Below, in pieces: positions 2,378 through 41,550 of a DNA stretch of 41,550 nucleotides. Each line of letters opens with the position of its first letter. The stretch's first letter is position 1. A program made the translations under genes and the position numbers. The DNA is from a virus. Location: the IMG/VR virus record IMGVR_UViG_3300034236_000021. One strand, written 5' to 3'. The notes under the pieces are model-generated. The model saw nothing but the letters and a program-made list of their open reading frames with translations. It did not search any database and was not told where the DNA came from.

Positions 2378-2934
2378 TATTTACTCTCTTTCTTGCTTGA
2401 ACTTGCTTCTTTGCGATCAGCTGAAGGGGTTGCGTCAGTATTTACACCGCCGTTAGCCTCAACGTCACCGCTGTTGTCTGTACCGCGCTCCAAAGTTTTC
2501 TCTGTGGCGGCCAATTGGGCACGTAGCTGAGACTCGGTGGTTGTGTTCAACTCCTGGCTCTCGGCTTCTTTGCGTTTGTCCTGCTCGGCTTCAAGAGCTG
2601 CTAGACGAGCACGTAGGCCCTTCAGCATTTCAGCGTCAGACTCAAGCTTGCGCTCAGGCTGGGCTGCGAACTCGTCGCTGTTCAGGCCAACTTCTTTGAC
2701 GTCACCCTTTTTGACATCGCGTACCCACTCAAAACCAGCACGGACGAATCCGCGTGCTTGAGCATCACCGGTAATGGGGTCAGTTAAGGCTATGATCTCT
2801 TCCTTAGTAGCTGGGTGACGGTATACACCGCCGCTCAGTTCCTGAGAGGAGCCGCCAACTTGTCCTGTGTTACCAGAGACTTCGGGCATCTTTGCTACGC
2901 CTTGTTTAGGGCGTGCTAGTGTTCCTTCTGCCAT
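2377..2934 (-). CDS. Hypothetical head-module protein (185 aa), coiled-coil C-terminal half
   Basis: Follows the capsid gene. Charged coiled-coil segment LKGLRARLAALEAEQDKRKEAE. Confidence 0.55.
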   Translation of the reverse strand: MAEGTLARPKQGVAKMPEVSGNTGQVGGSSQELSGGVYRHPATKEEIIALTDPITGDAQARGFVRAGFEWVRDVKKGDVKEVGLNSDEFAAQPERKLESDAEMLKGLRARLAALEAEQDKRKEAESQELNTTTESQLRAQLAATEKTLERGTDNSGDVEANGGVNTDATPSADRKEASSSKKESK

Positions 2935-2954
2935 TTCATAAATCCTTTCGTTAA

Positions 2955-3803: not shown

Positions 3804-3820
3804 TGCCTAATCCTCTTCTG

Positions 3821-4630
3821 TTAATCAGACCACAGGGCGAGGAGGGGATCTTGCTTCCCTGTACGGGTCGCACTAGACGATGGGTCGGCCGATGCAAGTT
3901 GCCTCTCAGCTGCTTGCTGGCCTTTTACTTGCCCGTCTATCGCTCCCAACTTCGTTGCGTCTGCATATGATTTGTAAAGTTGGTAAGGCGATACATTGGA
4001 GCCGATAACCTGCCCAGTGTTTGGGTCAAGTACTAAACTGCTGCTTAATATCTGGTCTACTTGTGCTGCCAGCTCCGGGCGGTAATCAGGGTTCGTTGGT
4101 TTGCCTTCGGCATCAAGCTTTGGGTCAAACATAGGAAAGTCCTGTAGCACGCGCTCCGCTTCTGTACGAAGGGTGAGTTGTGTCTCTGCCATCTGCTCGT
4201 TAAACTTGCCGAGTTCTATCTCTTGTCTAAGTGCTTCCACTTTCGCGTCAGTCTCAGACAAGCCTTGCTCAACAAGTTCATCTTTGCTTTGGGGCTGGTA
4301 CACCTGGGAATTTAGCTTCTCGACTTCGGAACGAATCTCATTCCGCCTGGATACTAAGTCCCGTATTTCAGTGTTAAGTTGCTGCTTGCGCTCTTCTGCT
4401 GCGCCTCGCGGCTGTTCCTCGGATTCCGTATCATCGGGCTTTTCCCCTTCGCCTTCTGGCTTCTCGGGTTGCTCTTCTGTTTCTTCTTTGGACTTGGCGT
4501 CTTCTTTCGGTTGGTTATCCCAGACCTCATTGACGTTATTTTCAGCTGCTTCAGGTTGGTTGTTTTCAGCTGTTGATGAGTCAGCGGCGGGAGAATCCTG
4601 CGTGGCTCCCTGATCGTTTACATCTGACAT
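3821..4630 (-). CDS. Scaffolding protein (269 aa)
   Basis: Very acidic, low-complexity N-terminus followed by coiled coil. Lies immediately upstream of the capsid gene. Confidence 0.65.
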   Translation of the reverse strand: MSDVNDQGATQDSPAADSSTAENNQPEAAENNVNEVWDNQPKEDAKSKEETEEQPEKPEGEGEKPDDTESEEQPRGAAEERKQQLNTEIRDLVSRRNEIRSEVEKLNSQVYQPQSKDELVEQGLSETDAKVEALRQEIELGKFNEQMAETQLTLRTEAERVLQDFPMFDPKLDAEGKPTNPDYRPELAAQVDQILSSSLVLDPNTGQVIGSNVSPYQLYKSYADATKLGAIDGQVKGQQAAERQLASADPSSSATRTGKQDPLLALWSD

Positions 4631-17411: not shown

Positions 17412-17783
17412 TTACCAGTCCTCTGGTTTGATCACGTTGCCTGGAACCTCCCCAGAAAAGTGATTAACCCTATGTACGGCTATATCTAACAGTTCTTTGA
17501 TCTCTCGCTCTTCATATCCAGCAATGCCACAGCCTATTTTGGTTAACAGGAAAGTGAGCTCTGGGTGCCTCTTGGCATAGATCAAGAAATCCTCAAGGTT
17601 ACTCGTCAGCTCAAAGATGCCGCTCATAGTGTCTATGGCATAGCATTGACCAGTCCTACCGCTGCCTACACCCCATTCAGCTCCGAATGATTCATAGGCC
17701 TGCTTAGCTGCTCCTCCCGCATGGTGGCCAGACTTATTGCTTCCAAACACAAATATTTCATTTTTCTCTAGGCTATCTATCAT
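17412..17783 (-). CDS. SLOG/A1S_2505-like phage non-structural protein (123 aa)
   Basis: Motif IFVFGSNKSGHHAGGAAKQA...FGAEWGVGSGRTGQCYAI. 1-nt overlap with the upstream pentapeptide gene. Family call is from memory. Confidence 0.55.
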   Translation of the reverse strand: MIDSLEKNEIFVFGSNKSGHHAGGAAKQAYESFGAEWGVGSGRTGQCYAIDTMSGIFELTSNLEDFLIYAKRHPELTFLLTKIGCGIAGYEEREIKELLDIAVHRVNHFSGEVPGNVIKPEDW

Positions 17784-18481
17784 CAGTATTTTTCTGCCTC
17801 AAGCCGAGTAATAAAGAAGTGAATCCCTGAGGAGCATTCATCTGTCCAATCCGGGTCAAATGGTTCTATGGGCTTAACTGTTTCTCCCTTACGGTATACA
17901 AAGTTTGAATCGTGACTACTGACCGCTTCAGTAGCACCATAGATCTGCATGACTTTTGCATATTCAGCCCGGCACTTACGACCGAAAGCATGTGACCGCT
18001 TGGCCCTTGCAGGAATTTGAAGTTTTACGATTACGCCGTTTTGGCATTTTTTCCAACCGGTGATGGTGCCCTCAGGAAGAATGCGAGTCATAGCTATGGC
18101 GTAGTCGGCGTCCTTGGCCCCGCGTAGGTCGGCCCCGCGTAGGCTGGCCTCGCGTAGGTTGGCCCCGCGTAGGTCGGCCCCGGATAGGTCGGCCCCGTAT
18201 AGGCTGGCCCCGTATAGGTCGGCCCCGGATAGGTTGGCCCCGCGTAGGTCGGCCCCGCGTAGGCTGGCCTCGCGTAGGTTGGCCCCGCGTAGGTCGGCCC
18301 CGGATAGGTCGGCCCCGTATAGGCTGGCCTCGCGTAGGTCGGCCCCGCGTAGGCTGGCCCCGGATAGGTCGGCCCCGGATAGGTCGGCCTCGTAAACCGC
18401 GTCCTTAATCGTTTCTGCTTTTTCGCTTTCAAACAGAACGGAGCCCCAGATAGACTTGATTTGTATTTTTACTTTACCCAT
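17783..18481 (-). CDS. Pentapeptide-repeat protein with a distinct C-terminal domain (232 aa)
   Basis: About 20 consecutive A(D/N)L(S/R/Y)GA units, followed by a ~100-aa non-repeat domain ending [16 protein letters not shown]. Confidence 0.85.
18114..18329. repeat. 15-nt periodic tract with a 96-nt exact tandem duplication (18114-18209 = 18234-18329)
   Basis: Rows 18121-18180 and 18241-18300 are letter-identical. This is the coding repeat of the pentapeptide gene. Confidence 0.9.
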
Positions 18482-21204: not shown

Positions 21205-21340
21205 CCAGCTTTCTCCTAACTGTTTTGACTGATTTACCCCAGTCATAGGTCTCTCACTTGGACAGCTACCTAATGCCATACTCTGTATGGATTTTGTTTC
21301 GGTTAACTGTCCGGGGTTGTAATCACCATGACTACAGCCC

Positions 21341-21375
21341 CAAATTAATAACCGACGCTTGTCTTCGCGTCGGTT
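21341..21375 (-). terminator. Hairpin/terminator downstream of the recombinase gene
   Basis: Minus strand reads AACCGACGC-GAAGACAA-GCGTCGGTT followed by ATTAATTT. Confidence 0.5.
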
Positions 21376-21516: not shown

Positions 21517-22365
21517 TTATGTCAATACGCTTATGTGGTGCTGGTTAAACGCGTCCTGCAAATCTTGGTTTTCAACGTGCGTGTATATCTGGGTTGTGCT
21601 GATAAAGGCATGGCCCAGGATTAACTGGATATGTCTCATATTAGCACCATTATGCAATAAGTCAGTTGCCCCGCTATGCCGTAGCATGTGTGTGTACACT
21701 CGACGCTCTATGCCTGCTCGGCTTGCATTTCTTTTTACTACCCCATTTATTCCGCCCCTGGAGTAACGGACTTTCTTGGTGCTCAGGAATAGGGCCGGAG
21801 ATTCATCTTTCCTGCTGGCTAAGTACTCCGCTAACAAGATTCGTGTGTCTTTGTCTATAAAGACAGTCCGTGAGCGGGCATATTTGCCAAAACGTATGTA
21901 CACGAGATTATCACTTACGTCCGTTCGATTCAGGGAGGAAAGCTCCTTGGAACGTATACATGTATTAAATATGAAAGATAGCAACAATCGTTCCCGCAGA
22001 ATCGGGGCAGCTGCTATTAGGTCAACAATTTCACTATGCTTTAGATACTGAGGAAGAGCCTGGGGTAATCGAGGTAGGAATATCTCTGTCGTGTCGAATT
22101 TGGTATAGCCTTTTTTATTGGCATACTCCAGTATATTTTTGACCTTAGAAAGATAGAGTCTTACCGTTGCCGGGGCTTTATCTTTCGCCATATCGTTTCG
22201 CCATAAGGCAATATCAACCGGCGTCAGGCTTTTTATGTCGACGTTCCCGCGGCTACATACAAGTGCCTTTACGGCGTCACGGTAGCTTTGCTCAGAGCTA
22301 TCGGTTAAGCCGCGGACTTGTATGTAGTTGACTCTGAAATCTTCCAGGGCTTGTAATATTGTCAT
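21517..22365 (-). CDS. int: Tyrosine recombinase, XerC/D-like small integrase (282 aa)
   Basis: CIRSKEL (box I Arg), HMLRHSGATDLL and LGHAFISTTQIYTHV (H-R-H...Y). N-terminal SAM-like core-binding domain. No arm-binding domain is evident. Confidence 0.9.
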   Translation of the reverse strand: MTILQALEDFRVNYIQVRGLTDSSEQSYRDAVKALVCSRGNVDIKSLTPVDIALWRNDMAKDKAPATVRLYLSKVKNILEYANKKGYTKFDTTEIFLPRLPQALPQYLKHSEIVDLIAAAPILRERLLLSFIFNTCIRSKELSSLNRTDVSDNLVYIRFGKYARSRTVFIDKDTRILLAEYLASRKDESPALFLSTKKVRYSRGGINGVVKRNASRAGIERRVYTHMLRHSGATDLLHNGANMRHIQLILGHAFISTTQIYTHVENQDLQDAFNQHHISVLT

Positions 22366-24143: not shown

Positions 24144-24168
24144 GCAAAAAGCCCCAAGCATTGGGGCT
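24144..24168 (-). terminator. Intrinsic terminator (minus strand)
   Basis: AGCCCCA-atgct-TGGGGCT followed by TTTTTGCG on the minus strand. Confidence 0.6.
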
Positions 24169-24221
24169 GTAGTCATGGTGATTAGATTTAATATACCAAA
24201 TTAACCGATTTTAGGCAAACG

Positions 24222-34000: not shown

Positions 34001-35107
34001 CTGTACTGGCGGCTTCATAGGAGGCGGCACTTGTGGGGCCGTTGCTAGAGCGGCTTGTGGCCGAGGACGAATAGGCATAGGCTGTGGTGTCCGCTCTGCA
34101 AGTCGCAGTGGGTCGAGTGCTCCAGCGGGAACTGAACCGGCCGAGGCCTGGTTCTTACTGCGTTGCCTGACAGTATCCAGCATAAGGTTCACCTTCTCCA
34201 GTTGGTCTACCTTACTACCAGTAGCAAGTTCTATCCCGTTCCGTTTTGCAACGTCACGACTTCTTGCAATAGTATCTGATAGCTCGCGGCCCGAAAGCTG
34301 CTTTGCTCCTGCGAGGTGATTAGACAACGCCTCAAGTGTATATTGATCGTTTAGCTGGACACGGGGAGTAAACGCCCGTTGCTCGACCTTCTGGGCGGTT
34401 TGGGCAGTCTTTGCGGCGCCAGCCTTCACAACAGGGGCGGCCTTTCTCGCAGCTGCTCCAACTACAGGGATGGCGCCACCAAGTGCCGCGCCATACTTAG
34501 CGCCGGTTACAGCGCTCTCCTGTAAACCCTGCCTAGTAATAGGCTGGTTGCCTTCGCCGATGTACGCCGCAACATTACCCGCTGCTCCTGCCGGAGCCCC
34601 GACTGCCGCACCTGAAATAACTTTGGGTATAACCTTCGGTACTGCTTTTGGTAGTACTTTGGTTGCCGCTTGGGTTACTAATTTGGAGCTGCCGGGAGCG
34701 GCCACATTGACTACAGTACCAAGCGCCGCTCCTGCGAGCTGCCTTTTAGTACCTTTATAGTCAACCATGCTGTTGAAGCCCGGTATCTTTCCATAGGATT
34801 GCTGTGTAAATTGCTGCGCGTCAAGGGTAGGCCGACCAGCTAATTTGTTTAGGGCGTTATACGCGCCCTGGTTTAAGCCAATACTCAGCTGTGCTGCGGG
34901 CTTCGTCACAGTACCAACCGCGTTTGTCAGCCCGTTATGTGTTGCTTGCTGGATTACTGATGAATGGGCGCGAGGAGCTGGTGCGTTGTCCATGACCGTG
35001 CGGTAGGTGCGCCCGTTGTCTAGTGGATTAACCTGAGCAACGGTTGCCCCTACTCCACGCTCTACCTTTTTCTTTGCATTACTAAGCCAAGGTACTAGGG
35101 ATGCCAT
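31070..35107 (-). CDS. Very large virion protein (1345 aa), internal/ejection-type
   Basis: Size. Ala/Gly/Lys-rich with several hydrophobic Gly/Ala stretches. AAGGAGG RBS. No enzymatic motif recognised. Confidence 0.6.
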   Translation of the reverse strand: MASLVPWLSNAKKKVERGVGATVAQVNPLDNGRTYRTVMDNAPAPRAHSSVIQQATHNGLTNAVGTVTKPAAQLSIGLNQGAYNALNKLAGRPTLDAQQFTQQSYGKIPGFNSMVDYKGTKRQLAGAALGTVVNVAAPGSSKLVTQAATKVLPKAVPKVIPKVISGAAVGAPAGAAGNVAAYIGEGNQPITRQGLQESAVTGAKYGAALGGAIPVVGAAARKAAPVVKAGAAKTAQTAQKVEQRAFTPRVQLNDQYTLEALSNHLAGAKQLSGRELSDTIARSRDVAKRNGIELATGSKVDQLEKVNLMLDTVRQRSKNQASAGSVPAGALDPLRLAERTPQPMPIRPRPQAALATAPQVPPPMKPPVQTLTAPAGDMSLPPNQAVATFDPVSKQKTSRYAGKTVPESEFVSEQVRRDVKAGAPQYDVQTERARYTDSLGRLKAQGEDTFEIDVRTRLEAPSGKISSQDVADTQSLAAILDAKADPASLQKATELYERLSEHLTAAGQTVQAAAILSRRTPEGLRYWATKQLNQAGVKVTPELQTQLNALIAKTKTATDKQRAVFEVQKLVNDNIPSGAGDRIINFWRAGLLTAPTTTAGNLLGNTGEALVRKGFVNPVATGADMLMSLATGKRTQTLALPGAAGSGFKEGAKTLPDYIKTGYDPRNNGQKYEQKADLSYGNSPFGKALGGYVNGVYRLMGTADAPFSTSAQKEALSSIAKAEATNRGLKGNARSSFVQKFMANPPTQALERATKESDYATFKNKTILGNMASGLKRSAGPAKPVVDFVIPFTQVPSAIATRLVERTPVGIAKEMVTQIKAVKAGEPFDQRAMSQAIGNGTFGVVAIGAGLALAKAGDMTFGYPRDEKERKLWEAEGKQPYSVRVGNRWYSLNYLQPFGMLLAIGGDIHDSGQEGKGTTDKTFSAIATAAQAMQEQSFLKGISGVLDAINDPDGTAKKFVENSTSSLTPNFVRSAARAADEIQRKPEGIIEGIKSGVPGLRGQTAPKTDLFGQPLPAKDNFLNQYVNPFKPSLVREGDAVSQELRALKDVDMGAIPSQIKSDTFGKDTKLEKPQLKALQDQVGQQVGAGWKSLVATPEYKALGDEEQKKALANLSKDILAVEKAKYAAENQVGQYAPGYEGEEKKLSFGQKQLAQGKFNPKSYTQTEEQKETEFYSSPEAEYIAAKDKYDQDKSEGKITEVKDITRKRKLQKLEVGSKYDKNVRDLYEMNKSEISKYLESKGNDTDLVGRLLDYDDALTKAGLQEKSKLRDKYGNVSIKPKAKGEGQAKARSAKAIGLALKTPTIGRARQSTIKASRPSIPKFTASVRTPKLRRAKLVQTSRKVS

Positions 35108-35118
35108 AGTAGGCCTCC

Positions 35119-36282
35119 TTAGTATCCAAGAGCGTTATTTTGCCGACGCTGGTTCAGCAAAGAGTACAAGGCGGGGGATATGTTATCTGTGTAAGCACTG
35201 TCATTCGTCATCCCTGCCCCAAGCGGTTGCTCGTAGTTGTACTGTTGCAGGTTCGGGTTGGCGTAAGTAGGCTGCTGTACGTTTATTGGTGCAGCGTACT
35301 GTGCGCCAAGATTTACGATGTCACCCTGTAAGGAGTCAATCTGGTTCATGTAAGGGTTGGCAGCGGCTAGAGCGGCAGCACTGTTTCCGCCCTGGGCTAG
35401 ACTCCGCTGGGAGTTCAGCTCTGCTAGTTGCTGTAGTATAGAAGCCCGCTTTTCTGCCACGCCTGCCTTTAGGGACTGCCTGTTTTGGAATGCGCCCTGG
35501 TCAAGCTCTTGCTTCGACTGTTCCACACCGGTTGAGTAGTTGTTCCAGTTTGTGTCAAGGTCTTGCATGTTCTGCTGGTAAGCGTCACCAACTTGCCTCA
35601 ATTGCTGCGTTCCTTGTAGGGCAGCTGCGTAAGGGGCTGCAACACGAGCTGCGCTGGAGTTACCGGCACCTTTAGCACCCAGAAGGCGCTGCAAGCCATT
35701 GGCCTGCCGTCCGACTGACGCGTTGATGTCATTACGGGTATTTATATTATCTTGTGTAGAACGAGACCTAGTTGTGTCAAACTGCTGCTTGGCTTGTGTC
35801 TGGCCACTCATCAGGCGATTTAGTGCGCTGCTGTAGGAGCTGTTGATATTCTCATCGCCAACTTGCTGCTGTCGGTCTAACAAGCCAAGTGAATTGGTTG
35901 CGCGACCAATACCTGAGTTAAGAACGGCTATGTCGTTAGGATTAACACTAGAATAGCCATTAGACCCACCGTTACTAACCTGAGCCCCGGTTGTGCCTCC
36001 TGGGTTTTGAGATGTGGTACTGGCGCTATCATCAACAGCCCCAGGTACCGCATTGCCTCCTCGTTGCATCCCGGGCACACCTGGGAGGCCATTGGTCATT
36101 GTTACGCCTTGGTTCATGGAGGCGTTAGGGTTGGTTATGTTAGACGCTTGTCTGAAATACCCTTGGGCCGAGCGATCTGCACCCACTACGTCTGCAACAG
36201 CGCCCGCACCACGGAATGCGGTCGCCGTAGTGGGCTGGATTATATTGCGGCCAATCCAATTTGAACTACCATAAAAAGCCAT
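35119..36282 (-). CDS. Gln/Asn/Gly-rich virion protein (387 aa)
   Basis: AGGAG RBS. Low-complexity Q/N-rich composition. Lies upstream of the 1345-aa protein. Confidence 0.6.
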   Translation of the reverse strand: MAFYGSSNWIGRNIIQPTTATAFRGAGAVADVVGADRSAQGYFRQASNITNPNASMNQGVTMTNGLPGVPGMQRGGNAVPGAVDDSASTTSQNPGGTTGAQVSNGGSNGYSSVNPNDIAVLNSGIGRATNSLGLLDRQQQVGDENINSSYSSALNRLMSGQTQAKQQFDTTRSRSTQDNINTRNDINASVGRQANGLQRLLGAKGAGNSSAARVAAPYAAALQGTQQLRQVGDAYQQNMQDLDTNWNNYSTGVEQSKQELDQGAFQNRQSLKAGVAEKRASILQQLAELNSQRSLAQGGNSAAALAAANPYMNQIDSLQGDIVNLGAQYAAPINVQQPTYANPNLQQYNYEQPLGAGMTNDSAYTDNISPALYSLLNQRRQNNALGY

Positions 36283-36299
36283 ATGAACTCCTCGAAAGA

Positions 36300-36323
36300 T
36301 AGAGAAGTTTTAGGATTTGGCTA
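36300..36323. repeat. 24-bp perfect inverted repeat, left arm (tagagaagttttaggatttggcta)
   Basis: Exact reverse complement of 37257-37280. The inner 3 nt are the TAG stop of the CAP gene. Confidence 0.95.
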
Positions 36324-36824
36324 CTTTACGAAATGCTGTACGATTAGTGTTTCACCTATTTTGTTCTTGCAGATTCCAAAACCAATATTCGTAAAACGCT
36401 TGTCTAGTATGTTGTCCTTGTGTGTCTTGCTATTCATCCACCCGCTAATCGCCTCATCAACACTATCATTGCCTTTGTAGAGGTTCTCGGCCGCAACATC
36501 ATACTCGGAAACGGTTTTCTTTATAAATACCCAAGGCTCGGTACCCTCTGGCGAGTTATGGCTCCAGTAGTCTTTTGTTGCCATATCCTGGCATTTGGCC
36601 AAAGCCGAGGCATTAAGGCGTTCGTCTAACGCCGTCCTACTCACCCCCACCTCAGCCCTTTCTGAGTTAGTTCGCCTCCATAGGTCATATACTACAAGGC
36701 TGTTCGCACTTGAATTGCCCGGTTTACTCATTGTAGGTTTTATCGTCGAATCACGGATTGACGCGCCAATCCAGGTAAAAACTATAGCGACGAGCGCTAG
36801 CAAAGCAATGTGCTTGCGGTTCAT
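36321..36824 (-). CDS. CAP/SCP (YkwD-like, PR-1 superfamily) domain protein with N-terminal signal anchor (167 aa)
   Basis: LWRRTNSERAEVGVSRTALDERLNASALAKCQDMATKDYWSH...AENL...AISGWMNSKTHKDNIL...FTNIGFG matches the CAP/SCP pattern. N-terminal IALLALVAIVFTWIG. Confidence 0.8.
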   Translation of the reverse strand: MNRKHIALLALVAIVFTWIGASIRDSTIKPTMSKPGNSSANSLVVYDLWRRTNSERAEVGVSRTALDERLNASALAKCQDMATKDYWSHNSPEGTEPWVFIKKTVSEYDVAAENLYKGNDSVDEAISGWMNSKTHKDNILDKRFTNIGFGICKNKIGETLIVQHFVK

Positions 36825-36832
36825 GCTAATAA

Positions 36833-36875
36833 CTTATACAGTAATTCACTTGATTTGTCAATCCTCTGATACAAT
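36833..36875. promoter_or_regulatory. Back-to-back divergent promoters inside the cassette
   Basis: Minus strand: TTGACA (36861-56) - 17 nt - TATAAG (36838-33) with an upstream TG, and the ATG follows 8 nt later (near-leaderless). Plus strand: extended -10 TGaTACAAT (36867-75), then a GGGGA RBS. Confidence 0.6.
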
Positions 36876-36899
36876 CATTAGCATAAGCAGGGGAATAGG

Positions 36900-37259
36900 A
36901 TGAGCGTACTTGGAAAAATAGTGGGAGGCCTCTTCCTCCTATTCGTGGCATTTTGCATCGGCGCTACTGTCGGTGATACGACAGCCAGGAACGAGCTAAC
37001 GCAAAAGAATACCGAGGCAAGCGCTCAGCTCAACCAGGCTATTGCCGAACGTGACAAGTCGTTAGCGGAGCTACGAGGAGTTCACGAAGACCTTATTGCG
37101 AAATGGAACCAGCAACAGAATGACATTGGCGCGGGAAAGTATACCCGTACACAGTATGTGCAATCGCCTAATTACTCGAGCATATTCCCTAAAACTACTA
37201 GATGCGAAACGCGAGACTCTTACTACACGAACGGTGGCTTTACTACCACATGCCAATAG
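36900..37259 (+). CDS. Membrane-anchored coiled-coil protein (119 aa)
   Basis: N-terminal TM IVGGLFLLFVAFCIGATV, coiled-coil middle, C-terminus with 2 Cys. Plus strand with its own promoter. Confidence 0.7.
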   Translation: MSVLGKIVGGLFLLFVAFCIGATVGDTTARNELTQKNTEASAQLNQAIAERDKSLAELRGVHEDLIAKWNQQQNDIGAGKYTRTQYVQSPNYSSIFPKTTRCETRDSYYTNGGFTTTCQ

Positions 37260-37280
37260 CCAAATCCTAAAACTTCTCTA
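37257..37280. repeat. 24-bp perfect inverted repeat, right arm (tagccaaatcctaaaacttctcta)
   Basis: Exact reverse complement of 36300-36323. The first 3 nt are the TAG stop of 36900..37259. Confidence 0.95.
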
Positions 37281-37318
37281 ATTGTTAAGATACTATTTTC
37301 TAAATAGCACCTCATGTG

Positions 37319-37430
37319 TCGTGACCCGTTGGTTACTGGCCTGTGCGAACCACGCCTGTATGCGTTAACGTTCTCTTGCACTTGGAACTATACTTAGCTC
37401 GTTCGTGACTCGTTGGTTTAAGAGCCTGTG
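37319..37430. repeat. Imperfect direct repeat tcgtgac[c/t]cgttggtt-n4/5-gcctgtg (37319-45 and 37403-30)
   Basis: 15/16 and 7/7 matches with an 84-nt period. Related tcgtggcccgt at 37750-60 and ttcgtgact at 37812-20. Confidence 0.7.
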
Positions 37431-37494
37431 TCGCGGTACATTGTATTGCCTAAGGCGTACGGCGAGCTGTGATAGTCTGATTATATCACTATTT

Positions 37495-37514
37495 AAAAAA
37501 GCCCCTTAGGGCTT
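37495..37514 (-). terminator. Intrinsic terminator (minus strand)
   Basis: Minus strand reads AAGCCC-TAAG-GGGCTT-TTTT. Confidence 0.65.
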
Positions 37515-37620
37515 TCATACTAGAGTGTCAGTTAATGGGGTGAGTGTGCCACGTAAGACAAAACCGCTTATGTTATCCACAGATATAGCTTCCACATTCT
37601 TGTTAGTAACAACATTGGGG

Positions 37621-37650
37621 TTGACCCAATCCGTTGAACGCATGTAATAT
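37621..37650 (+). promoter_or_regulatory. Promoter TTGACC-18-TAATAT for the plus-strand sRNA
   Basis: ttgacc at 37621-26 and taatat at 37645-50. The predicted +1 (~37657) coincides with the first base of the 5' hairpin. Confidence 0.6.
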
Positions 37651-37656
37651 ATGAAT

Positions 37657-37750
37657 GCAAGCACGCGCTTGTTAGCACCCCCACCAAGTGTGCTTGCACA
37701 TTATCCTTCGTAGCGAGAAAGATTTAACCGGCTGATATGGCCGGTTTTTT
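37657..37750 (+). ncRNA. Candidate sRNA (~94 nt): 5' hairpin with C-rich loop, single-stranded ACAUUAUCCUUCGUAGCGA, intrinsic terminator
   Basis: Stem gcaagcac (37657-64) / gtgcttgc (37690-97) with loop uuagcacccccac. Terminator AACCGGC-tgatatg-GCCGGTT-TTTT (37726-50). Contains no ATG. Confidence 0.6.
37698..37716. repeat. 19-nt perfect direct repeat, copy 1 (acattatccttcgtagcga)
   Basis: Identical to 37847-37865. The flanking bases differ on both sides. Confidence 0.95.
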
Positions 37751-37779
37751 CGTGGCCCGTGAAGGTATGAAATCGTAAG

Positions 37780-37921
37780 CATAAGAAAAGACCGGCAAGA
37801 TGCCGGTCTACTTCGTGACTTCGAGCTACCCCAATGTAGATCAATAACATTATCCTTCGTAGCGATACGTCGGTAGGGCGGTATACTCTCAAAACCCTCT
37901 TGGCAAGGCCTTGCCGCGATT
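37780..37921 (-). ncRNA. Candidate sRNA (~140 nt) convergent with the plus-strand sRNA; carries UCGCUACGAAGGAUAAUGU
   Basis: Predicted +1 ~37921. 5' palindromic hairpin GGCAAGGCCTTGCC. Terminator GACCGGCA-tct-TGCCGGTC-TTTTCTT (37808-37780). The terminator lies inside the 74-aa track ORF, which argues against that ORF. Confidence 0.55.
37847..37865. repeat. 19-nt perfect direct repeat, copy 2
   Basis: Identical to 37698-37716. Confidence 0.95.
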
Positions 37922-37927
37922 GCATTT

Positions 37928-37957
37928 AGTATAATCCCATACCTTTCAGTCTGTCAA
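37928..37957 (-). promoter_or_regulatory. Promoter TTGACA-18-TATACT for the minus-strand sRNA
   Basis: Reverse complement of 37952-57 (TTGACA) and 37928-33 (TATACT), just downstream of the fibre gene stop. Confidence 0.6.
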
Positions 37958-37969
37958 CAACGGTGCTGC

Positions 37970-39760
37970 TTATCTAGTCAAAGCCCGTCCATTACCAAAC
38001 GCTACACACTGGTAGTCTAGGTGTATTAGGTCAGTAGCCACAACACCTGAGTTAGTAGTATTGATAGCAGCTCCAGTTTCCCTACCGGTAGCGGTTGGGA
38101 TATTAGTCGTAAGAGTGTCTGTCCACAGTAAGGTGCCACTATCGTTAAATATTTCAAAAGTAATGCTGGTAGCTCCAGCGTTTACTGTTACTCGTGATCG
38201 ATACCACGTAGCTACCGTCAGCGTATAAGTTGTGCCAGTACTGCTACGGGTATTAGCAGTCGCAGTTTTGCCGGTAGCCACACCAGCCGAGTCTATTTCA
38301 ATATAGGCACCATCGGCCGCGTCAGCGCTACTTGAAGTATCGAGAAAGCCCATACGAGTAGTAGTGGCAGTAAAAACTTCTGGCATCCAGATACATTCAA
38401 AGACTTCACCGCCTCCTAATAGTATTTGGGCGGTGTTAAGAGCTACAGTATAGCCGGAATTGGTTGTTGTTGAGCTACGGAGCCTCACTTGTCCCGGATG
38501 AGAGGCAGTTACACGGCCAGCATTGGGTGCATTTATCGTACCTGATGCTATGGCGATACCCGAGAATGGGTCAATCATGTTTGAAGAGCTAAGCCCTGCA
38601 AAGTCTGAGTAGTAAATAGGCTTTTTACGTATAGCATCCATCATCGCGTAGCCGTAATCTATATAGGCCGAGACATTATTAGGAGTAGACGAATCTTTTT
38701 GCCACTTTACGTTTTGCCCGCCAGCAGGAGCAGCAACTACGGAATCACTTAGATTGGCGTCAGTCGCGGCAACACCGTTGACGCTGACACTGTCTCCAGA
38801 GCCGCCTGAAGGCGTAGACCAAGTACCGTCACCGCGTAGGTAGGTACTAGAACTTGGTGTACCAGTCGCACTTATTCCAGTACTAACTGGCAGGCCTGTA
38901 GCGTTGGTTAAGACTGCTGCACTAGGCGTTCCAAGTGCAGGAGTAACTAATGTTGGCGATGTTCCGCGTACTATGGAACCGGTGCCAGTTGTCGTATTTC
39001 CTAGTAGGGTTACATTTGGATCATAAGCCTGTACGTCAGTCCCGATTACAAGCCCCAAGTTCGTACGAGCGCCCGCCGCGGTACTAGCCCCAGTGCCACC
39101 ATCAGCCACTGCCACGTCAGTACCACCCGGAGCATATTTTCCATCCAGGGTTGCCTGCAAGCCAGTAACTGTACTGATTGCCTGAGCGCCCGTGTGGTTA
39201 GTCCGATTCTTTAGGTTCGCGTCAGTGTCGTTAGCCGTTGCACCAGTAGCAATGCCCGCAACTTTAGTTTTCTCCGTAGCTGTATAGGCTTTGTTAGTCG
39301 TTCCGTCTGGCACTGCATCTTGGTTAAGCGCCTGCATTGTCTTATCGCCCCGGTAATATTGAGATGACGTTCCTGCGGCAATGGTAGTCTCTTTTGTGTC
39401 CAACTGGCTCTTATTCACAGCGTCAGCGGCGTTCGTACCATTGGCTAGACTAGTGACCTTATTCCCATTAACGTCTACTCCGGCTGCTTCAGTAATGGTA
39501 GCCACAGTTGTGCCAGCGCTATTCTTCAACCGTATACCAGCTCCTGCGCTCCGAAGGTCCGTATGGTCTGATGTGGATACATTCAGTATATCTGGGTTGT
39601 TACCAATGCTATCCGTTCCCTTTATGGGTATGTTATGCGGCATGTAGAACGATGTATAGCCTTGGACGCTACCCCCAGCGATGCTATCAAGAAATGCACT
39701 TTGGTTTTGTTTGCCGACCAATTCAGCAGCTAGGTCGGATTCTTGTATATGTGTTCCCAT
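37970..39760 (-). CDS. Tail fibre / receptor-binding protein (596 aa) with lectin-like C-terminal domain
   Basis: NKVTSLANGTNAADAVNKSQLD and TNHTGAQAISTVTGLQATLDGK fibre motifs. C-terminal ~200 aa is beta-rich and jelly-roll/LamG-like by composition. TAATG overlap with the GH81 stop. Confidence 0.75.
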   Translation of the reverse strand: MGTHIQESDLAAELVGKQNQSAFLDSIAGGSVQGYTSFYMPHNIPIKGTDSIGNNPDILNVSTSDHTDLRSAGAGIRLKNSAGTTVATITEAAGVDVNGNKVTSLANGTNAADAVNKSQLDTKETTIAAGTSSQYYRGDKTMQALNQDAVPDGTTNKAYTATEKTKVAGIATGATANDTDANLKNRTNHTGAQAISTVTGLQATLDGKYAPGGTDVAVADGGTGASTAAGARTNLGLVIGTDVQAYDPNVTLLGNTTTGTGSIVRGTSPTLVTPALGTPSAAVLTNATGLPVSTGISATGTPSSSTYLRGDGTWSTPSGGSGDSVSVNGVAATDANLSDSVVAAPAGGQNVKWQKDSSTPNNVSAYIDYGYAMMDAIRKKPIYYSDFAGLSSSNMIDPFSGIAIASGTINAPNAGRVTASHPGQVRLRSSTTTNSGYTVALNTAQILLGGGEVFECIWMPEVFTATTTRMGFLDTSSSADAADGAYIEIDSAGVATGKTATANTRSSTGTTYTLTVATWYRSRVTVNAGATSITFEIFNDSGTLLWTDTLTTNIPTATGRETGAAINTTNSGVVATDLIHLDYQCVAFGNGRALTR

Positions 39761-41550
39761 TATCTTGTAGCTATCCAGTGAAGCAAGTTAGTTAATGTTG
39801 CACCATTATCAAAGGTGGTGAGCGCATTCGCCTCAGTCCATGCAGCTGCTGGGTCGAGTACCGCCTTAGCGGAGTTCATAACCCCTTGCCAGGCATCAGT
39901 CATTTCTATATGGAGAGTGCCTGTTGCACCCGTACCTCCTCCACCGACGACAGTGATGGTATCGCCGTCAACATAACCACTCCCCGTCCACTCATACGCT
40001 GAGCCTATCTTTGGAGTTATAGAAGTGACAGCACCTCCCGATACAGCAATAGTGACGAGAAGGCCTGTACCGCTACCCCCAGTTGTTGCTAGGCTGCTTC
40101 CTGCGGTATAGCCTGAGCCACCCGTGAGCTTGGTTATCCGGTAAGGCGTACTACGGCTATCGATACGTGACATAACGGCCGGGTACTCATCCGCAACCCA
40201 GTCAGCCTCCAAGAAAAGTTCTGATATCGGTACGCAAGGGAGCATCTGGATTCCATGTATATACTCTTCCTGGGTTCCGAAGAAGGTGTTGTAGTCCATC
40301 TTAAAGTCGAACAAGATACCCACTGAGCCTTGCTGTTTGAAGTTCTCGGGCCAGATCGGTGAGTCAAGCTTAACGTGGTAGTAGCGCCGGACCGAGTGCA
40401 GTTCGGTGGCAGTCAGTAGTTGTCCGGTTGCAGCCATGTAGTCGCTGCCGCTCGCCAGTCCCCATAGTGTCAGTGCATAGTAGGCATTGATTGATTCACT
40501 GGAAGATTCTTGGTTCTTTGAGCTACTAGCTGCGCTTAAGCCATGGGCCCACGAATGGCCGTGGTACCAGTCTTTGTGACGGAATAGTGGGAAGCTGGTT
40601 TCACTTGGGTATGGGTTAGCTATATCTTTAGCTAGAACATTTACTTTTGTTTGGTAGCTAGCTAGGAACGCTGCGTCAGTCTTAGCAAGTATGGCGGCTG
40701 CGTAGAGCATGTATCCGTAGTGGAAGTGATGATCATTGTATATGCCATTGCCGAAGTCACCACCCGTAGATGTTGAGCCGTTTGTGGAGATGATGCCCCC
40801 GAAAGTCGTGTCATACAGTAGCTTATTTGTGTTAGTAGCGTCTAGCCAGGCTACAAGGCTTGGCTTGAACTTTGTACGAGCACTGGCCGCTAGAGTAGTC
40901 TCACCAAGTTCATCAGCTATTTGGGCTAGGCGGGCCCACTTCGCTAAGTACTTCCCACCGTAGTAGGGGTCAGCCTGCGCGGTAGTGGTACTGAATGTTG
41001 CACCAATGTCAGCGGTTAGCGCTGTCGTAATGGCTGCTATGCGGGTAGGGTCAATAGCATTCGGCGGCTTAAACCCAAATGTTGGGAGCACTTCACGCAT
41101 CGTCCATGAGGTGCCGCTTATCCCAGTCGTATCACCTTTAAGCACGTTATAGGTAATACCGGCTAGTGTTGGGTCCTGTATACCATCCATGTGATGGGGC
41201 AGTACGTGTGTCAGAAGCGTACCGCTTCCACTTGTCGTGTAAGTGAATACGATTGTACCCACGTTGTTATTTACGGTAAGAGTGAGATCAGCCCCAGTAA
41301 CGTATATGCCATGGGCAGCATCAAGTACGGCCTCATCTTCAGGCACGGATATAATGGCAGCCTGCAAAATTCCGGTGAAGGTGCTAGTAGCCACCAGCGC
41401 AGCAGTTGCGTGAGTGGATATGGTGATAACTGAGCTGGAGTAGATTACCCATGTCTGGCCATTACTCAGCACAATCTTAAACTTGTCACCTGTTGCACTT
41501 GAGCCTGGTGTTAGCCCATTAATAGTGACGATGCTCCCGGTGTGGGTGAT
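39760..41550 (-). CDS. GH81 endo-beta-1,3-glucanase, C-terminal 596 codons of the junction-spanning gene
   Basis: GH81 signature blocks YNDHHFHYGYMLYAAAILAK, FRHKDWYHGHSWAHGL, NQESSSESINAYYALTLWG and YIHGIQMLP. The frame stays open upstream of the track start at 41472, through 41550 and into 128-550. Confidence 0.88.
   Translation of the reverse strand: MTHTGSIVTINGLTPGSSATGDKFKIVLSNGQTWVIYSSSVITISTHATAALVATSTFTGILQAAIISVPEDEAVLDAAHGIYVTGADLTLTVNNNVGTIVFTYTTSGSGTLLTHVLPHHMDGIQDPTLAGITYNVLKGDTTGISGTSWTMREVLPTFGFKPPNAIDPTRIAAITTALTADIGATFSTTTAQADPYYGGKYLAKWARLAQIADELGETTLAASARTKFKPSLVAWLDATNTNKLLYDTTFGGIISTNGSTSTGGDFGNGIYNDHHFHYGYMLYAAAILAKTDAAFLASYQTKVNVLAKDIANPYPSETSFPLFRHKDWYHGHSWAHGLSAASSSKNQESSSESINAYYALTLWGLASGSDYMAATGQLLTATELHSVRRYYHVKLDSPIWPENFKQQGSVGILFDFKMDYNTFFGTQEEYIHGIQMLPCVPISELFLEADWVADEYPAVMSRIDSRSTPYRITKLTGGSGYTAGSSLATTGGSGTGLLVTIAVSGGAVTSITPKIGSAYEWTGSGYVDGDTITVVGGGGTGATGTLHIEMTDAWQGVMNSAKAVLDPAAAWTEANALTTFDNGATLTNLLHWIATR
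41424..41550. repeat. Terminal exact overlap, copy 2 (identical to 1-127)
   Basis: Same 127-nt string as 1-127. An ORF reads through it in frame, so it is the same locus written twice. Confidence 0.97.

What the first reader, a model, noticed from the sequence alone, without database searches (positions are those of the whole stretch)
36300..37280. Divergent two-gene secreted/membrane cassette (CAP/SCP protein plus TM coiled-coil protein) bounded by a perfect 24-bp inverted repeat that includes both stop codons
**Seen directly.**
- tagagaagttttaggatttggcta (36300-23) is the exact reverse complement of 37257-80.
- The arms begin precisely at the TAG stops of the two outward-facing genes, so both mRNAs carry the same 21-nt 3' tag AGCCAAAUCCUAAAACUUCUCUA after the stop.
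- Between the genes are back-to-back promoters: TTGACA-17-TATAAG, near-leaderless, for the CAP gene, and an extended -10 TGaTACAAT for the plus gene.
- The cassette interrupts the late virion operon, between the 596-aa fibre/sRNA island and the 387-aa virion protein. The plus gene is antisense to late transcription.

**Inference.** Three readings fit.
- An invertible segment. Flipping would swap which gene is co-oriented with late read-through transcription. The genome encodes a small tyrosine recombinase, and Fim/Bacteroides-type invertases use inverted repeats of this size.
- A horizontally acquired moron with terminal inverted repeats. No target-site duplication is visible.
- A long-range dsRNA stem in the late transcript that acts as a processing site.

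A CAP/SCP (YkwD-like) protein carried by a phage is itself uncommon and has no assigned role.
Basis: partly seen in the sequence, partly recalled or inferred. Interest (0 to 1): 0.72.

Follow-up and report, generated by a model that had tools for sequence, protein, structure and literature searches.

The report
Conserved RNA bracket around nested phage gene
The perfect 24-base inverted repeat is real, but comparison with related phages suggests it is a conserved long-range RNA pairing, not a DNA flip-switch or transposon end: it encloses a self-promoted secreted-protein gene and probably decides whether the next virion gene can be translated.

Summary
The arms 36300-36323 and 37257-37280 are 24/24 complementary, each starts at a TAG stop, and chance does not explain them. 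The window is a complete 41.4-kb genome of an uncultured temperate phage.

The interpretation needs revising.
- The CAP gene is not a recent moron. It lies directly upstream of the 387-aa gene homolog, on the same strand, in 17 related lineages.
- In 8 lineages with a short (29-46 nt) CAP-to-next-gene spacer, an inverted repeat brackets CAP and its leaderless promoter.
- The arm sequences differ between lineages but stay complementary. Cognate arms are each other's best partners.
- The downstream arm (D) also pairs locally with the Shine-Dalgarno (SD) of the 387-aa gene, using the same bases.
- The upstream arm (U) lies in the operon's 5' leader, upstream of the CAP promoter.

Best reading: a three-element RNA switch. 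Operon transcripts carry U, which captures D and frees the SD. CAP-promoter transcripts lack U, so D closes the SD.

The 119-aa gene is a lineage-specific orphan inserted between U and the CAP promoter. Relative L059 has the same layout with an unrelated gene.

No inverted copy appears in 13 contigs. This is a new variant of promoter-dependent RNA control, supported by computation only.

The parts
37480..37488 (-). Predicted operon promoter P_L: extended -10 TGATATAAT, directly after a small terminator-like hairpin with a T-run (about 37491-37513).
   Evidence: Sequence. An equivalent extended -10 or TATAAT box lies about 175-205 nt upstream of the TTAACAAY motif in L014, L022, L035 and L026. 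This is prediction only; no transcript data.
37289..37473 (-). Predicted ~185-nt 5' leader of the 387-aa operon. It contains two copies of AACCAACGRGTCACGA (37418-37403 and 37334-37319) and a hairpin just before TTAACAAT.
   Evidence: CAP-less and subgroup-B relatives have a promoter plus a ~200-nt leader directly before the 387-aa homolog.
37281..37288 (-). TTAACAAT motif that precedes the upstream arm.
   Evidence: TTAACAAY precedes U in all 8 subgroup-A lineages: immediately in seven, and 13 nt before it in L059.
37257..37280 (-). Upstream arm U (RNA: UAGAGAAGUUUUAGGAUUUGGCUA). It resembles an SD region with a spoiled core (GAGAAG against GAGGAG). On the plus strand its last 3 nt are the stop codon of the 119-aa gene.
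36900..37259 (+). 119-aa orphan gene with an N-terminal TM segment and a coiled-coil-like middle. It is a lineage-specific insertion (about 36862-37256, including its promoter) between U and P_CAP.
   Evidence: The only match in 5.8 billion proteins is itself. It is absent from L014, where U abuts P_CAP. TM segment at residues 7-25.
36867..36875 (+). Extended -10 (TGaTACAAT) for the 119-aa gene. An SD-like AGGGGA lies about 6 nt before its ATG.
   Evidence: Sequence. Consensus match only.
36833..36861 (-). P_CAP: TTGACA, 17 nt, TATAAG. The -10 ends 8 nt before the CAP ATG and there is no SD, so the mRNA is leaderless or nearly so.
   Evidence: A promoter whose -10 ends 6-9 nt before the CAP start, with no SD, was read in each of the 13 CAP-carrying relatives whose upstream region was inspected.
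36321..36824 (-). CAP/SCP-domain secreted protein, 167 aa, with an N-terminal signal or anchor.
   Evidence: PF00188, E=1.3e-17. phrog_16914. Invariant H89, E113 and H135 in alignment A2. Syntenic in 17 lineages.
36300..36323 (-). Downstream arm D (RNA: UAGCCAAAUCCUAAAACUUCUCUA). It begins at the CAP stop codon.
36286..36309 (-). Local hairpin: the anti-SD part of D (AACUUCUC, 36309-36302) pairs with the SD region of the 387-aa gene (GAGGAGUU, 36293-36286). This pairing and U-D cannot form at the same time.
   Evidence: MFE -8.6 kcal/mol, z=-2.6. The same arrangement occurs in 8 of 8 subgroup-A lineages.
35119..36282 (-). 387-aa virion-module gene, the first translated gene downstream of the switch. 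It is followed by a 1345-aa internal-virion-protein-like gene.
   Evidence: 45 homologs, all from uncultured sequences. The 1345-aa protein matches phrog_6651, internal virion protein.

Best explanation
The two arms work as RNA on the minus (sense) strand, not as DNA sites.

**Layout, read 5' to 3' on the minus strand.** Terminator; predicted promoter P_L (37488-37480); a ~185-nt leader ending in TTAACAAT; arm U; the antisense of the inserted 119-aa gene; P_CAP; the leaderless CAP gene; arm D, starting at the CAP stop; the SD; the 387-aa gene. CAP is therefore a self-promoted gene nested in the 5' untranslated region of the virion-protein operon.

**The three elements.** D can pair in two ways, using the same bases each time.
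- Locally, with the SD of the 387-aa gene (8 bp, -8.6 kcal/mol). This closes the ribosome-binding site. In some relatives the hairpin is followed by a U-run and looks like a weak terminator.
- At long range, with U (24 bp, -41 kcal/mol).

**The proposed logic.**
- Transcripts that start at P_L contain U. U is made first, captures D and leaves the SD open, so the virion gene is translated.
- Transcripts that start at P_CAP lack U, so D folds onto the SD. The 387-aa gene then stays silent, or is translated only through coupling to ribosomes terminating on CAP.
- The bracket thus lets an independently expressed secreted-protein gene sit inside the operon leader without switching on, or blocking, the virion genes.
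- In the window and in L059, the 21-24-bp perfect duplex is also long enough to be an RNase III substrate.

**Shown.** The repeat; its conservation and covariation; the overlap of the U-D and D-SD pairings; synteny; constant orientation.

**Inferred.** The promoters and transcript ends; that the pairings form in vivo; the regulatory outcome.
For: **1. The repeat is conserved while its sequence changes.** Eight lineages share the arrangement: the window, L014, L059, L022, L029, L035, L041 and L026. Their 387-aa homologs are 34-68% identical to the window's. In each, an inverted repeat brackets CAP and its promoter.
- Pairing ranges from 15-26 pairs and from -17 to -41 kcal/mol.
- Both L014 arms read TCTTAGAAC where both window arms read TCCTAAAAC.

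**2. Cognate arms match each other best.**
- In an 8x8 matrix of duplex energies, each cognate pair is the best in its row.
- None of 20,000 non-identity permutations reaches the observed sum.
- In the seven lineages scanned, and in L059 over its whole locus, the best partner of D among the 32-nt windows scanned (within about +-3 kb where the locus allows) is the site after TTAACAAY.

**3. D also closes the SD.**
- The spacer from CAP stop to next start folds so that D's 3' part pairs with the SD in 8 of 8 lineages (z from -1.8 to -4.5).
- The bases used overlap those that pair with U.
- D matches U perfectly but the SD imperfectly. In the window, CUUCUC pairs with GAGAAG in U, and with GAGGAG in the SD only through a G-U wobble. 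In L059, U has GAGCAG and the SD has GAGGAG.
- The GGAG core is spoiled in U in 7 of 8 lineages.

**4. The repeat goes with the short spacer.**
- It occurs in the lineages where the next gene's SD follows CAP within 29-46 nt.
- Relatives with a 110-756-nt spacer, four of which (L015, L017, L025, L054) show an extended -10 box right after CAP, have no significant repeat.

**5. U is placed where the model needs it.** It lies upstream of, or overlapping, the -35 of P_CAP, and about 200 nt downstream of a conserved extended -10 box.

**6. Whole-transcript folds agree.** The MFE and centroid folds of the operon 5' region have the U-D stem closing the CAP domain in both the window and L014.

**7. 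An independent lineage repeats the layout.** L059 has a 21-bp perfect repeat around an opposite-strand 127-aa gene plus P_CAP plus CAP. That gene is not homologous to the window's. The two lineages with loops of about 950 nt have the two strongest stems.

**8. There is precedent.** RBS-sequestering hairpins that depend on the promoter of origin are known for T4 e, soc, 49 and I-TevI (PMC3014915). Long-range aSD-like pairing over hundreds of nucleotides has been shown in vivo (PMC12697547).
Against: - No transcript data exist. P_L, P_CAP and co-transcription of U and D are consensus-based predictions.
- Two inverted copies of one protein-binding or recombination site would also covary, so covariation alone does not prove RNA pairing.
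- Non-Watson-Crick positions in the U-D helices do not favour the sense strand: 2 G-U against 2 A-C (from the arm sequences).
- U's direct similarity to the SD region beats shuffles only in L059.
- Ribosomes terminating at the CAP stop could open the D-SD hairpin in P_CAP transcripts, which would weaken the insulation logic.
- In the window, antisense transcription of the 119-aa gene could interfere with U.
- Only L059 passes the terminator scan. L026 and L035 do not, and the window's hairpin has no U-run.
- L061 has the D-SD hairpin, but its contig is too short to show whether U is present.
Confidence: 0.55

Rival explanations
1. The stem is only an RNase III processing site, with no role at the SD. 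U-D forms a long duplex in the operon transcript, like the stems that flank 16S and 23S rRNA. Cleavage removes the CAP domain from the virion mRNA or sets its stability. This can coexist with the best explanation.
For: Perfect or near-perfect duplexes of 21-25 bp in the window, L014 and L059. Whole-transcript folds keep the stem.
Against: In L022, L029, L035, L041 and L026 the longest uninterrupted run of pairs is only 9-10 bp; the helices total 15-21 pairs but are broken by bulges or interior loops. That is short of the roughly two uninterrupted helical turns RNase III usually needs (general knowledge). It does not explain why D overlaps an SD-pairing hairpin in 8 of 8 lineages. The host and its RNases are unknown.
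Confidence: 0.13
2. The arms are two inverted copies of a DNA site for a phage or host DNA-binding protein, such as a regulator that loops DNA around P_CAP. Both copies track the protein's specificity, which would produce the covariation.
For: The covariation fits this as well as it fits RNA pairing. U abuts or overlaps the P_CAP -35 in L014, L022 and L035.
Against: Arm length varies from 9 to 26 pairs. U has a 1-nt bulge in L026 and L041. In the window and L059, U lies 400 nt from P_CAP. The model gives no reason for D to be complementary to the next gene's SD. No candidate binding protein was identified.
Confidence: 0.1
3. The repeat is a leftover with no function. It arose when the translation-initiation region was duplicated as CAP inserted, and gene conversion has kept the arms alike.
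For: U resembles the SD region: 14 of 15 bases in L059. The phage encodes a Rad52-family annealing protein.
Against: The complementarity persists across lineages whose flanking protein has fallen to about 34% identity, while the arm sequences themselves have turned over. The window and L059 arms are perfect, and D is always a better match to U than to the SD. Unselected inverted repeats 0.5-1 kb apart would be expected to decay or cause inversions (general knowledge).
Confidence: 0.1
4. The segment is an invertible DNA switch. A site-specific recombinase (the 282-aa tyrosine recombinase), or homologous recombination, flips 36300-37280 and so changes which gene faces the operon's transcription.
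For: A perfect 24-bp inverted repeat. A tyrosine recombinase and a Rad52-like protein are encoded in the genome.
Against: - All 13 contigs of this phage that were read (10 listed, from JGI, ENA and Logan samples) have the same orientation. The 10 listed differ from the window at no more than 1 position over the up to 3 kb compared.
- In all 17 CAP-carrying lineages CAP is on the same strand as the operon.
- The arms vary in sequence and length, and some have a bulge, unlike recombinase core sites.
- The recombinase gene is 14 kb away and has its own, unrelated, perfect 24-bp repeat around it.
- Both genes in the block have their own promoters, so a flip would change little.

Rare inversion cannot be excluded without read-level data.
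Confidence: 0.06
5. The block is a moron or non-autonomous mobile cassette bounded by terminal inverted repeats and acquired horizontally as one 981-bp unit.
For: Terminal inverted repeats. Own promoters. GC content slightly below the genome's (0.459 against 0.486). PHROG places the CAP family in the moron category.
Against: - CAP is syntenic in 17 lineages.
- In L014 homologous arms bracket CAP alone, so the arms predate the 119-aa gene.
- There is no target-site duplication.
- The arm 20-mer has 0 hits in viral contigs and 1 hit in 596 Gb of genomes, against about 1 expected by chance.
- There are no other copies in the window.
Confidence: 0.03

Closest known systems
Promoter-dependent RBS sequestration in phage T4 (genes e, soc, 49, I-TevI; review PMC3014915)
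   Same: Whether a hairpin closes the SD or start codon depends on which promoter made the transcript, that is, on whether the 5' strand of a helix is present. This separates the expression programmes of overlapping transcripts.
   Different: - In T4 the long, early transcript is closed and the short, late one is open. Here the polarity is reversed.
- A third element, U, is needed as an anti-anti-SD.
- U lies 0.5-0.95 kb from D, and the helix encloses a whole gene with its own promoter.
hok/sok-type mRNAs: long-range 5'-3' pairing (tac/fbi) competing with local SD-sequestering helices (from general knowledge)
   Same: A long-range helix closes the whole coding region, and alternative pairings decide whether the SD is accessible.
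   Different: hok/sok is a toxin-antitoxin system switched by 3' processing and an antisense RNA. Here the choice is proposed to be set by the transcript's start site, and the regulated gene lies outside the enclosed loop.
Terminator/antiterminator attenuation (trp-type alternative hairpins; general knowledge)
   Same: Three segments with mutually exclusive pairings. In L059 the D-SD hairpin with its U-run passes a terminator scan.
   Different: The antiterminator strand is hundreds of nucleotides upstream, and its presence depends on promoter choice, not on a ligand or a ribosome. In the window the hairpin has no U-run.
Morons of lambdoid phages, e.g. HK97 gene 15 (PMC3594210)
   Same: A gene with its own sigma-70-type promoter, unrelated to virion assembly, nested in a late operon of a phage that encodes an integrase.
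   Different: - CAP is syntenic across deep relatives, not a sporadic addition, and its GC content is close to the genome's.
- Lambdoid late transcription passes moron terminators through Q antitermination (general knowledge). Here a cis RNA pairing is proposed to do that job.
- The 119-aa gene, and the 127-aa gene of L059, fit the moron idea better.
rRNA-operon and T7-type RNase III processing stems (general knowledge)
   Same: Flanking complementary sequences 0.5-1 kb apart form a duplex that encloses a functional unit. The duplex is 21-25 bp in three lineages.
   Different: The unit enclosed is a protein-coding gene with its own promoter. Several lineages have stems too short or too interrupted for canonical RNase III cleavage.
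Site-specific invertible segments (fimS, Bacteroides invertons, Mu G / P1 C)
   Same: Short inverted repeats around about 1 kb of DNA, in a genome that encodes a tyrosine recombinase.
   Different: No second orientation is seen anywhere. The arms are not conserved as a recombinase site. The recombinase is distant. The segment holds whole genes with their own promoters, not a promoter or alternative gene ends.
Long-range anti-SD-like sequences in bacterial mRNAs (PMC12697547)
   Same: [quoted passage not shown]
   Different: In that study the distant element is the repressor. Here the repressor is local and the distant element, U, is the proposed de-repressor.

Membership tests
Site-specific invertible DNA segment (inverton) | Inverted repeats flank the segment. 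| tested here: met
   24/24 inverted repeat.
Site-specific invertible DNA segment (inverton) | Both orientations exist in populations. | tested here: not met
   13 contigs of this phage (10 listed) and 17 CAP-carrying lineages all show one orientation. No read-level data, so rare inversion is not excluded.
Site-specific invertible DNA segment (inverton) | A dedicated recombinase, and arms conserved as its recognition site. | tested here: inconclusive
   A tyrosine recombinase is present but 14 kb away. The arm sequences turn over between relatives. A different perfect 24-bp repeat flanks the recombinase gene itself.
TIR-bounded mobile cassette (MITE/MIC-like) or moron acquired as a unit | Target-site duplication next to the terminal repeats. 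| tested here: not met
   The flanks are cgaaaga| and |attgtta.
TIR-bounded mobile cassette (MITE/MIC-like) or moron acquired as a unit | The same terminal repeats occur at other loci or in other genomes. | tested here: not met
   0 hits in viral contigs; 1 hit in 596 Gb of genomes, the number expected by chance; no other copy in the window.
TIR-bounded mobile cassette (MITE/MIC-like) or moron acquired as a unit | Presence or absence among relatives, with boundaries exactly at the repeats. | tested here: not met
   CAP is syntenic in 17 lineages. In L014 the homologous arms bracket CAP alone. Only the 119-aa gene is variable, and it lies inside the arms.
Alternative-pairing RNA switch at a ribosome-binding site | Complementarity is maintained by covarying changes among homologs. 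| tested here: met
   Cognate versus non-cognate duplex energies: 0 of 20,000 permutations reach the observed sum. U is D's best partner among the windows scanned (within about +-3 kb where the locus allows) in 8 of 8 lineages.
Alternative-pairing RNA switch at a ribosome-binding site | Mutually exclusive pairing that involves the SD or start codon. | tested here: met
   The D-SD hairpin appears in the MFE fold in 8 of 8 lineages and overlaps the bases that pair with U. Prediction only.
Alternative-pairing RNA switch at a ribosome-binding site | Both strands are present on one transcript, and one transcript class lacks the 5' strand. | tested here: inconclusive
   Consensus promoters are placed consistently in relatives.
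Alternative-pairing RNA switch at a ribosome-binding site | A measured effect on translation or termination. | not testable with these tools
   Needs reporter fusions and structure probing.
RNase III processing stem | A continuous duplex of about two helical turns. | tested here: inconclusive
   Met in the window (24 bp), L014 (25 bp with 1 mismatch and 2 wobbles) and L059 (21 bp). Not met in L022 and L029, where the longest perfect run is 9-10 bp.
CAP/SCP/PR-1 superfamily (the 167-aa protein) | A Pfam PF00188 match above the gathering score, and conserved His/Glu cavity residues. | tested here: met
   65.1 bits against a cut-off of 21.1. H89, E113 and H135 are invariant in 9 phage homologs. 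Assigning them to the CAP cavity rests on general knowledge; no structure was modelled.

The most novel reading that the evidence does not exclude
A group of uncultured temperate phages uses a covarying long-range RNA 'bracket' to insulate a self-promoted, leaderless gene nested in the 5' leader of a virion operon.

- The bracket's 3' arm is an anti-SD, and in some lineages terminator-like, element for the next gene.
- Its 5' arm, present only in operon transcripts, neutralises that element. Expression of the virion gene therefore depends on which promoter made the transcript.
- The bracketed space has become a landing site for unrelated opposite-strand membrane-protein genes (the window's 119-aa gene and L059's 127-aa gene). 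The stems are strongest in the two lineages where the loop has grown.
- This would be an RNA-based alternative to Q-type antitermination for carrying morons inside late operons.
Probability: 0.4. Interest if true: 0.68.

Novelty: new variant of a known kind. Interest (0 to 1): 0.58.

Why it matters
Phages often carry independently expressed accessory genes inside their late operons. How such a gene avoids disturbing the operon is understood mainly for lambdoid phages, through Q antitermination.

If this model is right, it offers a compact, purely cis-acting RNA solution. One short sequence closes the next gene's ribosome-binding site, and a decoy half a kilobase or more upstream reopens it only in the correct transcript.

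The model can be tested directly with reporter fusions and compensatory mutations. It would add a natural example of functional mRNA pairing over 0.5-1 kb. It would also give a rule for finding similar brackets in other phage genomes: an inverted repeat whose 3' arm overlaps an anti-SD.

There is a practical lesson as well. A perfect inverted repeat around a gene cassette is not by itself evidence of an inverton or a transposon.

Tried and rejected
**Searches that found nothing useful**
- Near-identity DNA search of 35000-39800 against 50,697 phage records: no match.
- tblastn of the 387-aa protein against the same records: no match.
- Single-protein scans of viral contigs with the 387-aa, CAP and recombinase proteins: no relatives. 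Relatives were reached only through the protein database and a profile.
- tRNA and Rfam scans of the whole window: nothing.

**Readings rejected**
- TIR mobile element: the arm 20-mer has 0 hits in viral contigs and 1 chance-level hit in genomes.
- Homology between the 119-aa protein and the opposite-strand TM proteins next to CAP in relatives: none. L017_128, L058_125 and L059_127 form a family of their own.

**Tests that were inconclusive or weak**
- G-U against A-C counts in the U-D helices, as a test of which strand matters: 2 against 2.
- U as a direct copy of the SD region: significant only in L059. It is reported only as a qualitative resemblance.
- The D-SD hairpin as an intrinsic terminator: passes the scan only in L059. 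Kept as a secondary possibility.

**Limits reached**
- The 15-nt repeat around CAP in L015 (P about 0.14) was treated as chance, or as similarity between promoter -10 boxes.
Encoding-contig look-ups were also exhausted.
Full report
**1. The observation**

The repeat is exactly as described. Arms 36300-36323 and 37257-37280 are 24 nt, 100% complementary, with 933 nt between them. A search allowing up to 3 mismatches finds only these two copies in the window, and 100 dinucleotide-preserving shuffles gave none.

The inner three bases of the arms are the TAG stops of two outward-facing genes:
- a 167-aa gene at 36321-36824, minus strand;
- a 119-aa gene at 36900-37259, plus strand.

The 167-aa protein is a CAP/SCP-domain protein (PF00188, E=1.3e-17) with an N-terminal signal or anchor. 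The 119-aa protein has one N-terminal hydrophobic segment and no homolog other than itself among 5.8 billion proteins.

Between the genes, the sequence shows two promoters:
- TTGACA, 17 nt, TATAAG on the minus strand. It ends 8 nt before the CAP ATG, and there is no SD.
- TGaTACAAT on the plus strand.

**2. The genome**

- The first and last 127 nt of the window are identical, so this is a circular assembly of a 41,423-bp genome.
- Almost all genes are on the minus strand. They include large and small terminase, a Rad52-like protein, a 282-aa tyrosine recombinase (21517-22365), a CHAP-domain protein, a 1345-aa internal-virion-protein-like gene, a fibre and a GH81 tail protein.
- Nothing similar exists among 50,697 sequenced phage records.

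**3. Orientation**

- The exact 119-aa protein is encoded on 13 contigs from independent JGI, ENA and Logan samples.
- The 10 shown differ from the window at no more than 1 position over the part of 35000-38080 that each covers (up to 3 kb), and all have the same orientation.

**4. Relatives change the picture**

The 387-aa protein has 45 homologs. I fetched their contigs and searched them for CAP.

- In 17 distinct lineages a CAP gene lies upstream of the 387-aa homolog, always on the same strand. In most it is directly adjacent; in L057 and L058 one small gene lies between.
- Other relatives lack CAP.
- CAP is therefore an old, syntenic member of this module, not a recent acquisition.
- In each of the 13 CAP-carrying relatives whose upstream region was inspected, CAP has a sigma-70-like promoter whose -10 ends 6-9 nt before the start codon, with no SD. 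That implies a leaderless mRNA.

**5. The repeat is conserved, but not its sequence**

Eight lineages have a spacer of only 29-46 nt between the CAP stop and the next start: the window, L014, L059, L022, L029, L035, L041 and L026. Their flanking proteins are 34-68% identical to the window's.

- In each, an inverted repeat brackets CAP and its promoter.
- The upstream arm (U) follows a conserved TTAACAAY motif.
- The downstream arm (D) starts at, or within 14 nt after, the CAP stop.
- In the closest relative, L014 (68%), homologous arms (22 of 25 matched) bracket CAP alone, and U abuts the -35 of P_CAP.
- So the window's 119-aa gene and its promoter (about 36862-37256) are an insertion between U and P_CAP.
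- Both L014 arms read TCTTAGAAC where both window arms read TCCTAAAAC.

Quantitatively:
- In an 8x8 matrix of duplex energies, the cognate U/D pair is the best in every row.
- None of 20,000 non-identity permutations reaches the observed sum.
- In every lineage, the best partner of D among the 32-nt windows scanned (within about +-3 kb where the locus allows) is the U site.

L059 is a striking independent case. It has a perfect 21-bp repeat (1980-2000 and 2959-2979) around an opposite-strand 127-aa TM gene plus P_CAP plus CAP. The layout matches the window's, but the inserted gene is not homologous to the window's. It belongs with L017_128 and L058_125.

**6. D has a second partner**

- In 8 of 8 of these lineages, the spacer between CAP and the next gene folds so that the 3' part of D pairs with the SD of the 387-aa homolog.
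- In the window this is AACUUCUC (36309-36302) with GAGGAGUU (36293-36286): -8.6 kcal/mol, z=-2.6. Across lineages z runs from -1.8 to -4.5.
- These bases overlap those that pair with U, so the two pairings cannot coexist.
- D is perfectly complementary to U but only imperfectly to the SD. In 7 of 8 lineages U looks like the SD region with its GGAG core spoiled (GAGAAG, GAGCAG, GGCAG, GGAAU).
- Relatives with a long spacer between CAP and the next gene (110-756 nt), four of which show an extended -10 box right after CAP, have no significant repeat.

**7. Where U sits**

- About 175-205 nt upstream of TTAACAAY, each lineage with enough sequence has an extended -10 or TATAAT box. In the window it is TGATATAAT at 37488-37480, just after a small terminator-like hairpin.
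- CAP-less relatives have the same promoter and ~200-nt leader directly before the SD of the 387-aa homolog.
- So in the eight lineages CAP is nested between the operon's leader and its first SD.
- U lies in the leader, upstream of P_CAP. D lies after CAP.
- The MFE and centroid folds of the whole 5' region keep the U-D stem as the closing helix, in both the window and L014.

**8. Mechanism (inferred)**

- Operon transcripts from P_L contain U. U captures D (-41 against -8.6 kcal/mol, and U is transcribed first), so the SD stays open.
- Leaderless transcripts from P_CAP lack U, so D closes the SD.
- In L059 the same hairpin with its U-run also passes a terminator scan. L026 and L035 do not, and the window's hairpin has no U-run.
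- The 21-25-bp duplexes of the window, L014 and L059 could also be RNase III substrates. The shorter, interrupted stems of the other lineages make that an unlikely common function.
- The two lineages with loops of about 950 nt have the two strongest stems. With only two such lineages this is suggestive at most.

**9. Why the DNA-level readings fail**

Inversion:
- only one orientation is seen, in 13 contigs and 17 lineages;
- the arms turn over in sequence, vary from 9 to 26 pairs, and carry a 1-nt bulge in L026 and L041;
- the recombinase gene is 14 kb away.

Mobile cassette:
- CAP is syntenic across the group;
- the arms predate the 119-aa gene;
- there is no target-site duplication;
- the arm 20-mer has 0 hits in viral contigs and 1 in 596 Gb of genomes, about the number expected by chance.

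A pair of inverted protein-binding sites would also covary. It would not explain the complementarity to the SD or the bulges.

**10. Caveats**

- Everything about transcripts and structure is prediction.
- G-U against A-C counts in the helices do not discriminate between strands.
- U's similarity to the SD region is statistically significant only in L059.
- Ribosomes terminating on CAP might open the hairpin, giving translational coupling.
- The host is unknown.

**11. Comparison and novelty**

- The nearest documented logic is T4's promoter-dependent sequestration of the RBS of e, soc, 49 and I-TevI (PMC3014915). Here the polarity is reversed and a distant third element is added.
- Long-range pairing with an RBS has been shown to work in vivo (PMC12697547).
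- Morons with their own promoter and terminator in late operons are known (PMC3594210). The 119-aa and 127-aa insertions fit that idea better than CAP does.
- Phage CAP proteins are rare, at 25 of 50,697 records, and have no known role (PMC4541274).
- I rate this a new variant of a known kind, of moderate to good interest, and directly testable.

Noticed in passing
window 21320-21343 and 24161-24184: A second perfect 24-nt inverted repeat (TAATCACCATGACTACAGCCCCAA), 2817 nt apart. It brackets the tyrosine recombinase gene (21517-22365) and an ORF-poor region that holds two further repeats: 23191-23220/23435-23464 (30 nt, 83%) and 23480-23501/23793-23814 (22 nt, 91%). The arms are unrelated to the CAP arms. 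On the minus strand the left arm lies in a strongly structured stretch (z=-7), and the right arm overlaps a terminator-like hairpin, AGCCCCAA-tgc-TTGGGGCT followed by T5. It could be a true invertible or lysogeny-module feature, or another RNA bracket.
   Followed up: partly
window 1-127 and 41424-41550: The first and last 127 nt are identical, so the window is a circular assembly of a 41,423-bp genome. The GH81 tail gene runs across the junction; it is 737 aa on contigs L003, L004 and L006.
   Followed up: yes
window 39760-41472 (-): A tail-module protein with glycoside hydrolase family 81 (endo-beta-1,3-glucanase) domains (PF17652, E=5e-96). This is an unusual depolymerase for a phage and hints at a host with a beta-1,3-glucan surface polymer.
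   Followed up: no
window 37289-37969 (-): The non-coding 'island' between the fibre gene and U contains:
- a strong promoter, TTGACA-18-TATACT (37957-37928);
- terminator-like hairpins at 37809-37789 and 37746-37726, the second one bidirectional;
- a 19-nt direct repeat (37698-37716 and 37847-37865);
- the predicted P_L;
- a leader with two copies of AACCAACGRGTCACGA (37418-37403 and 37334-37319).

It probably encodes one or more small RNAs as well as a structured operon leader. There is no Rfam match.
   Followed up: partly
L056 ~1560-1760, L057 ~3800-4000, L060 ~2810-3000: Relatives share a conserved ~190-nt leader upstream of the 387-aa homolog (...ttctaggatgaaacccaaaacgggtatgccgcaagc...). 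L027, L030, L031, L032 and L036 share a different one (...ctgatgccaaccgaaacaaggtagctagaaatag...). These are candidate structured 5' UTR RNAs with no known family.
   Followed up: no
L017 5724-6110, L058 3409-3786, L059 2000-2383, L014 3734-3898, window 36900-37259: Small opposite-strand genes encoding proteins with an N-terminal TM anchor recur next to CAP in this phage group. L017_128, L058_125 and L059_127 are homologous to each other (E 5e-25 to 8e-39). The window's 119-aa and L014's 54-aa proteins are unrelated to them. This is a hot spot for moron-like insertions.
   Followed up: partly
CAP genes in the 13 relatives whose upstream region was inspected (e.g. window 36824, L014 4462, L035 572, L026 about 3151): CAP is consistently predicted to be leaderless: the -10 box ends 6-9 nt before the start codon and there is no SD. 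Every other gene start examined in this region (the 387-aa homologs and the 119-aa gene) has an SD-like sequence. Gene callers disagree on the CAP start, giving 107, 136 or 167 aa for identical DNA.
   Followed up: partly
window 17783-18481 (-): A pentapeptide-repeat protein fused to DUF5758 (PF00805, E=2e-54) sits in the early/middle region, in a local GC peak of about 0.53 against 0.44 in the flanks. It may be a DNA mimic or an anti-defence gene.
   Followed up: no
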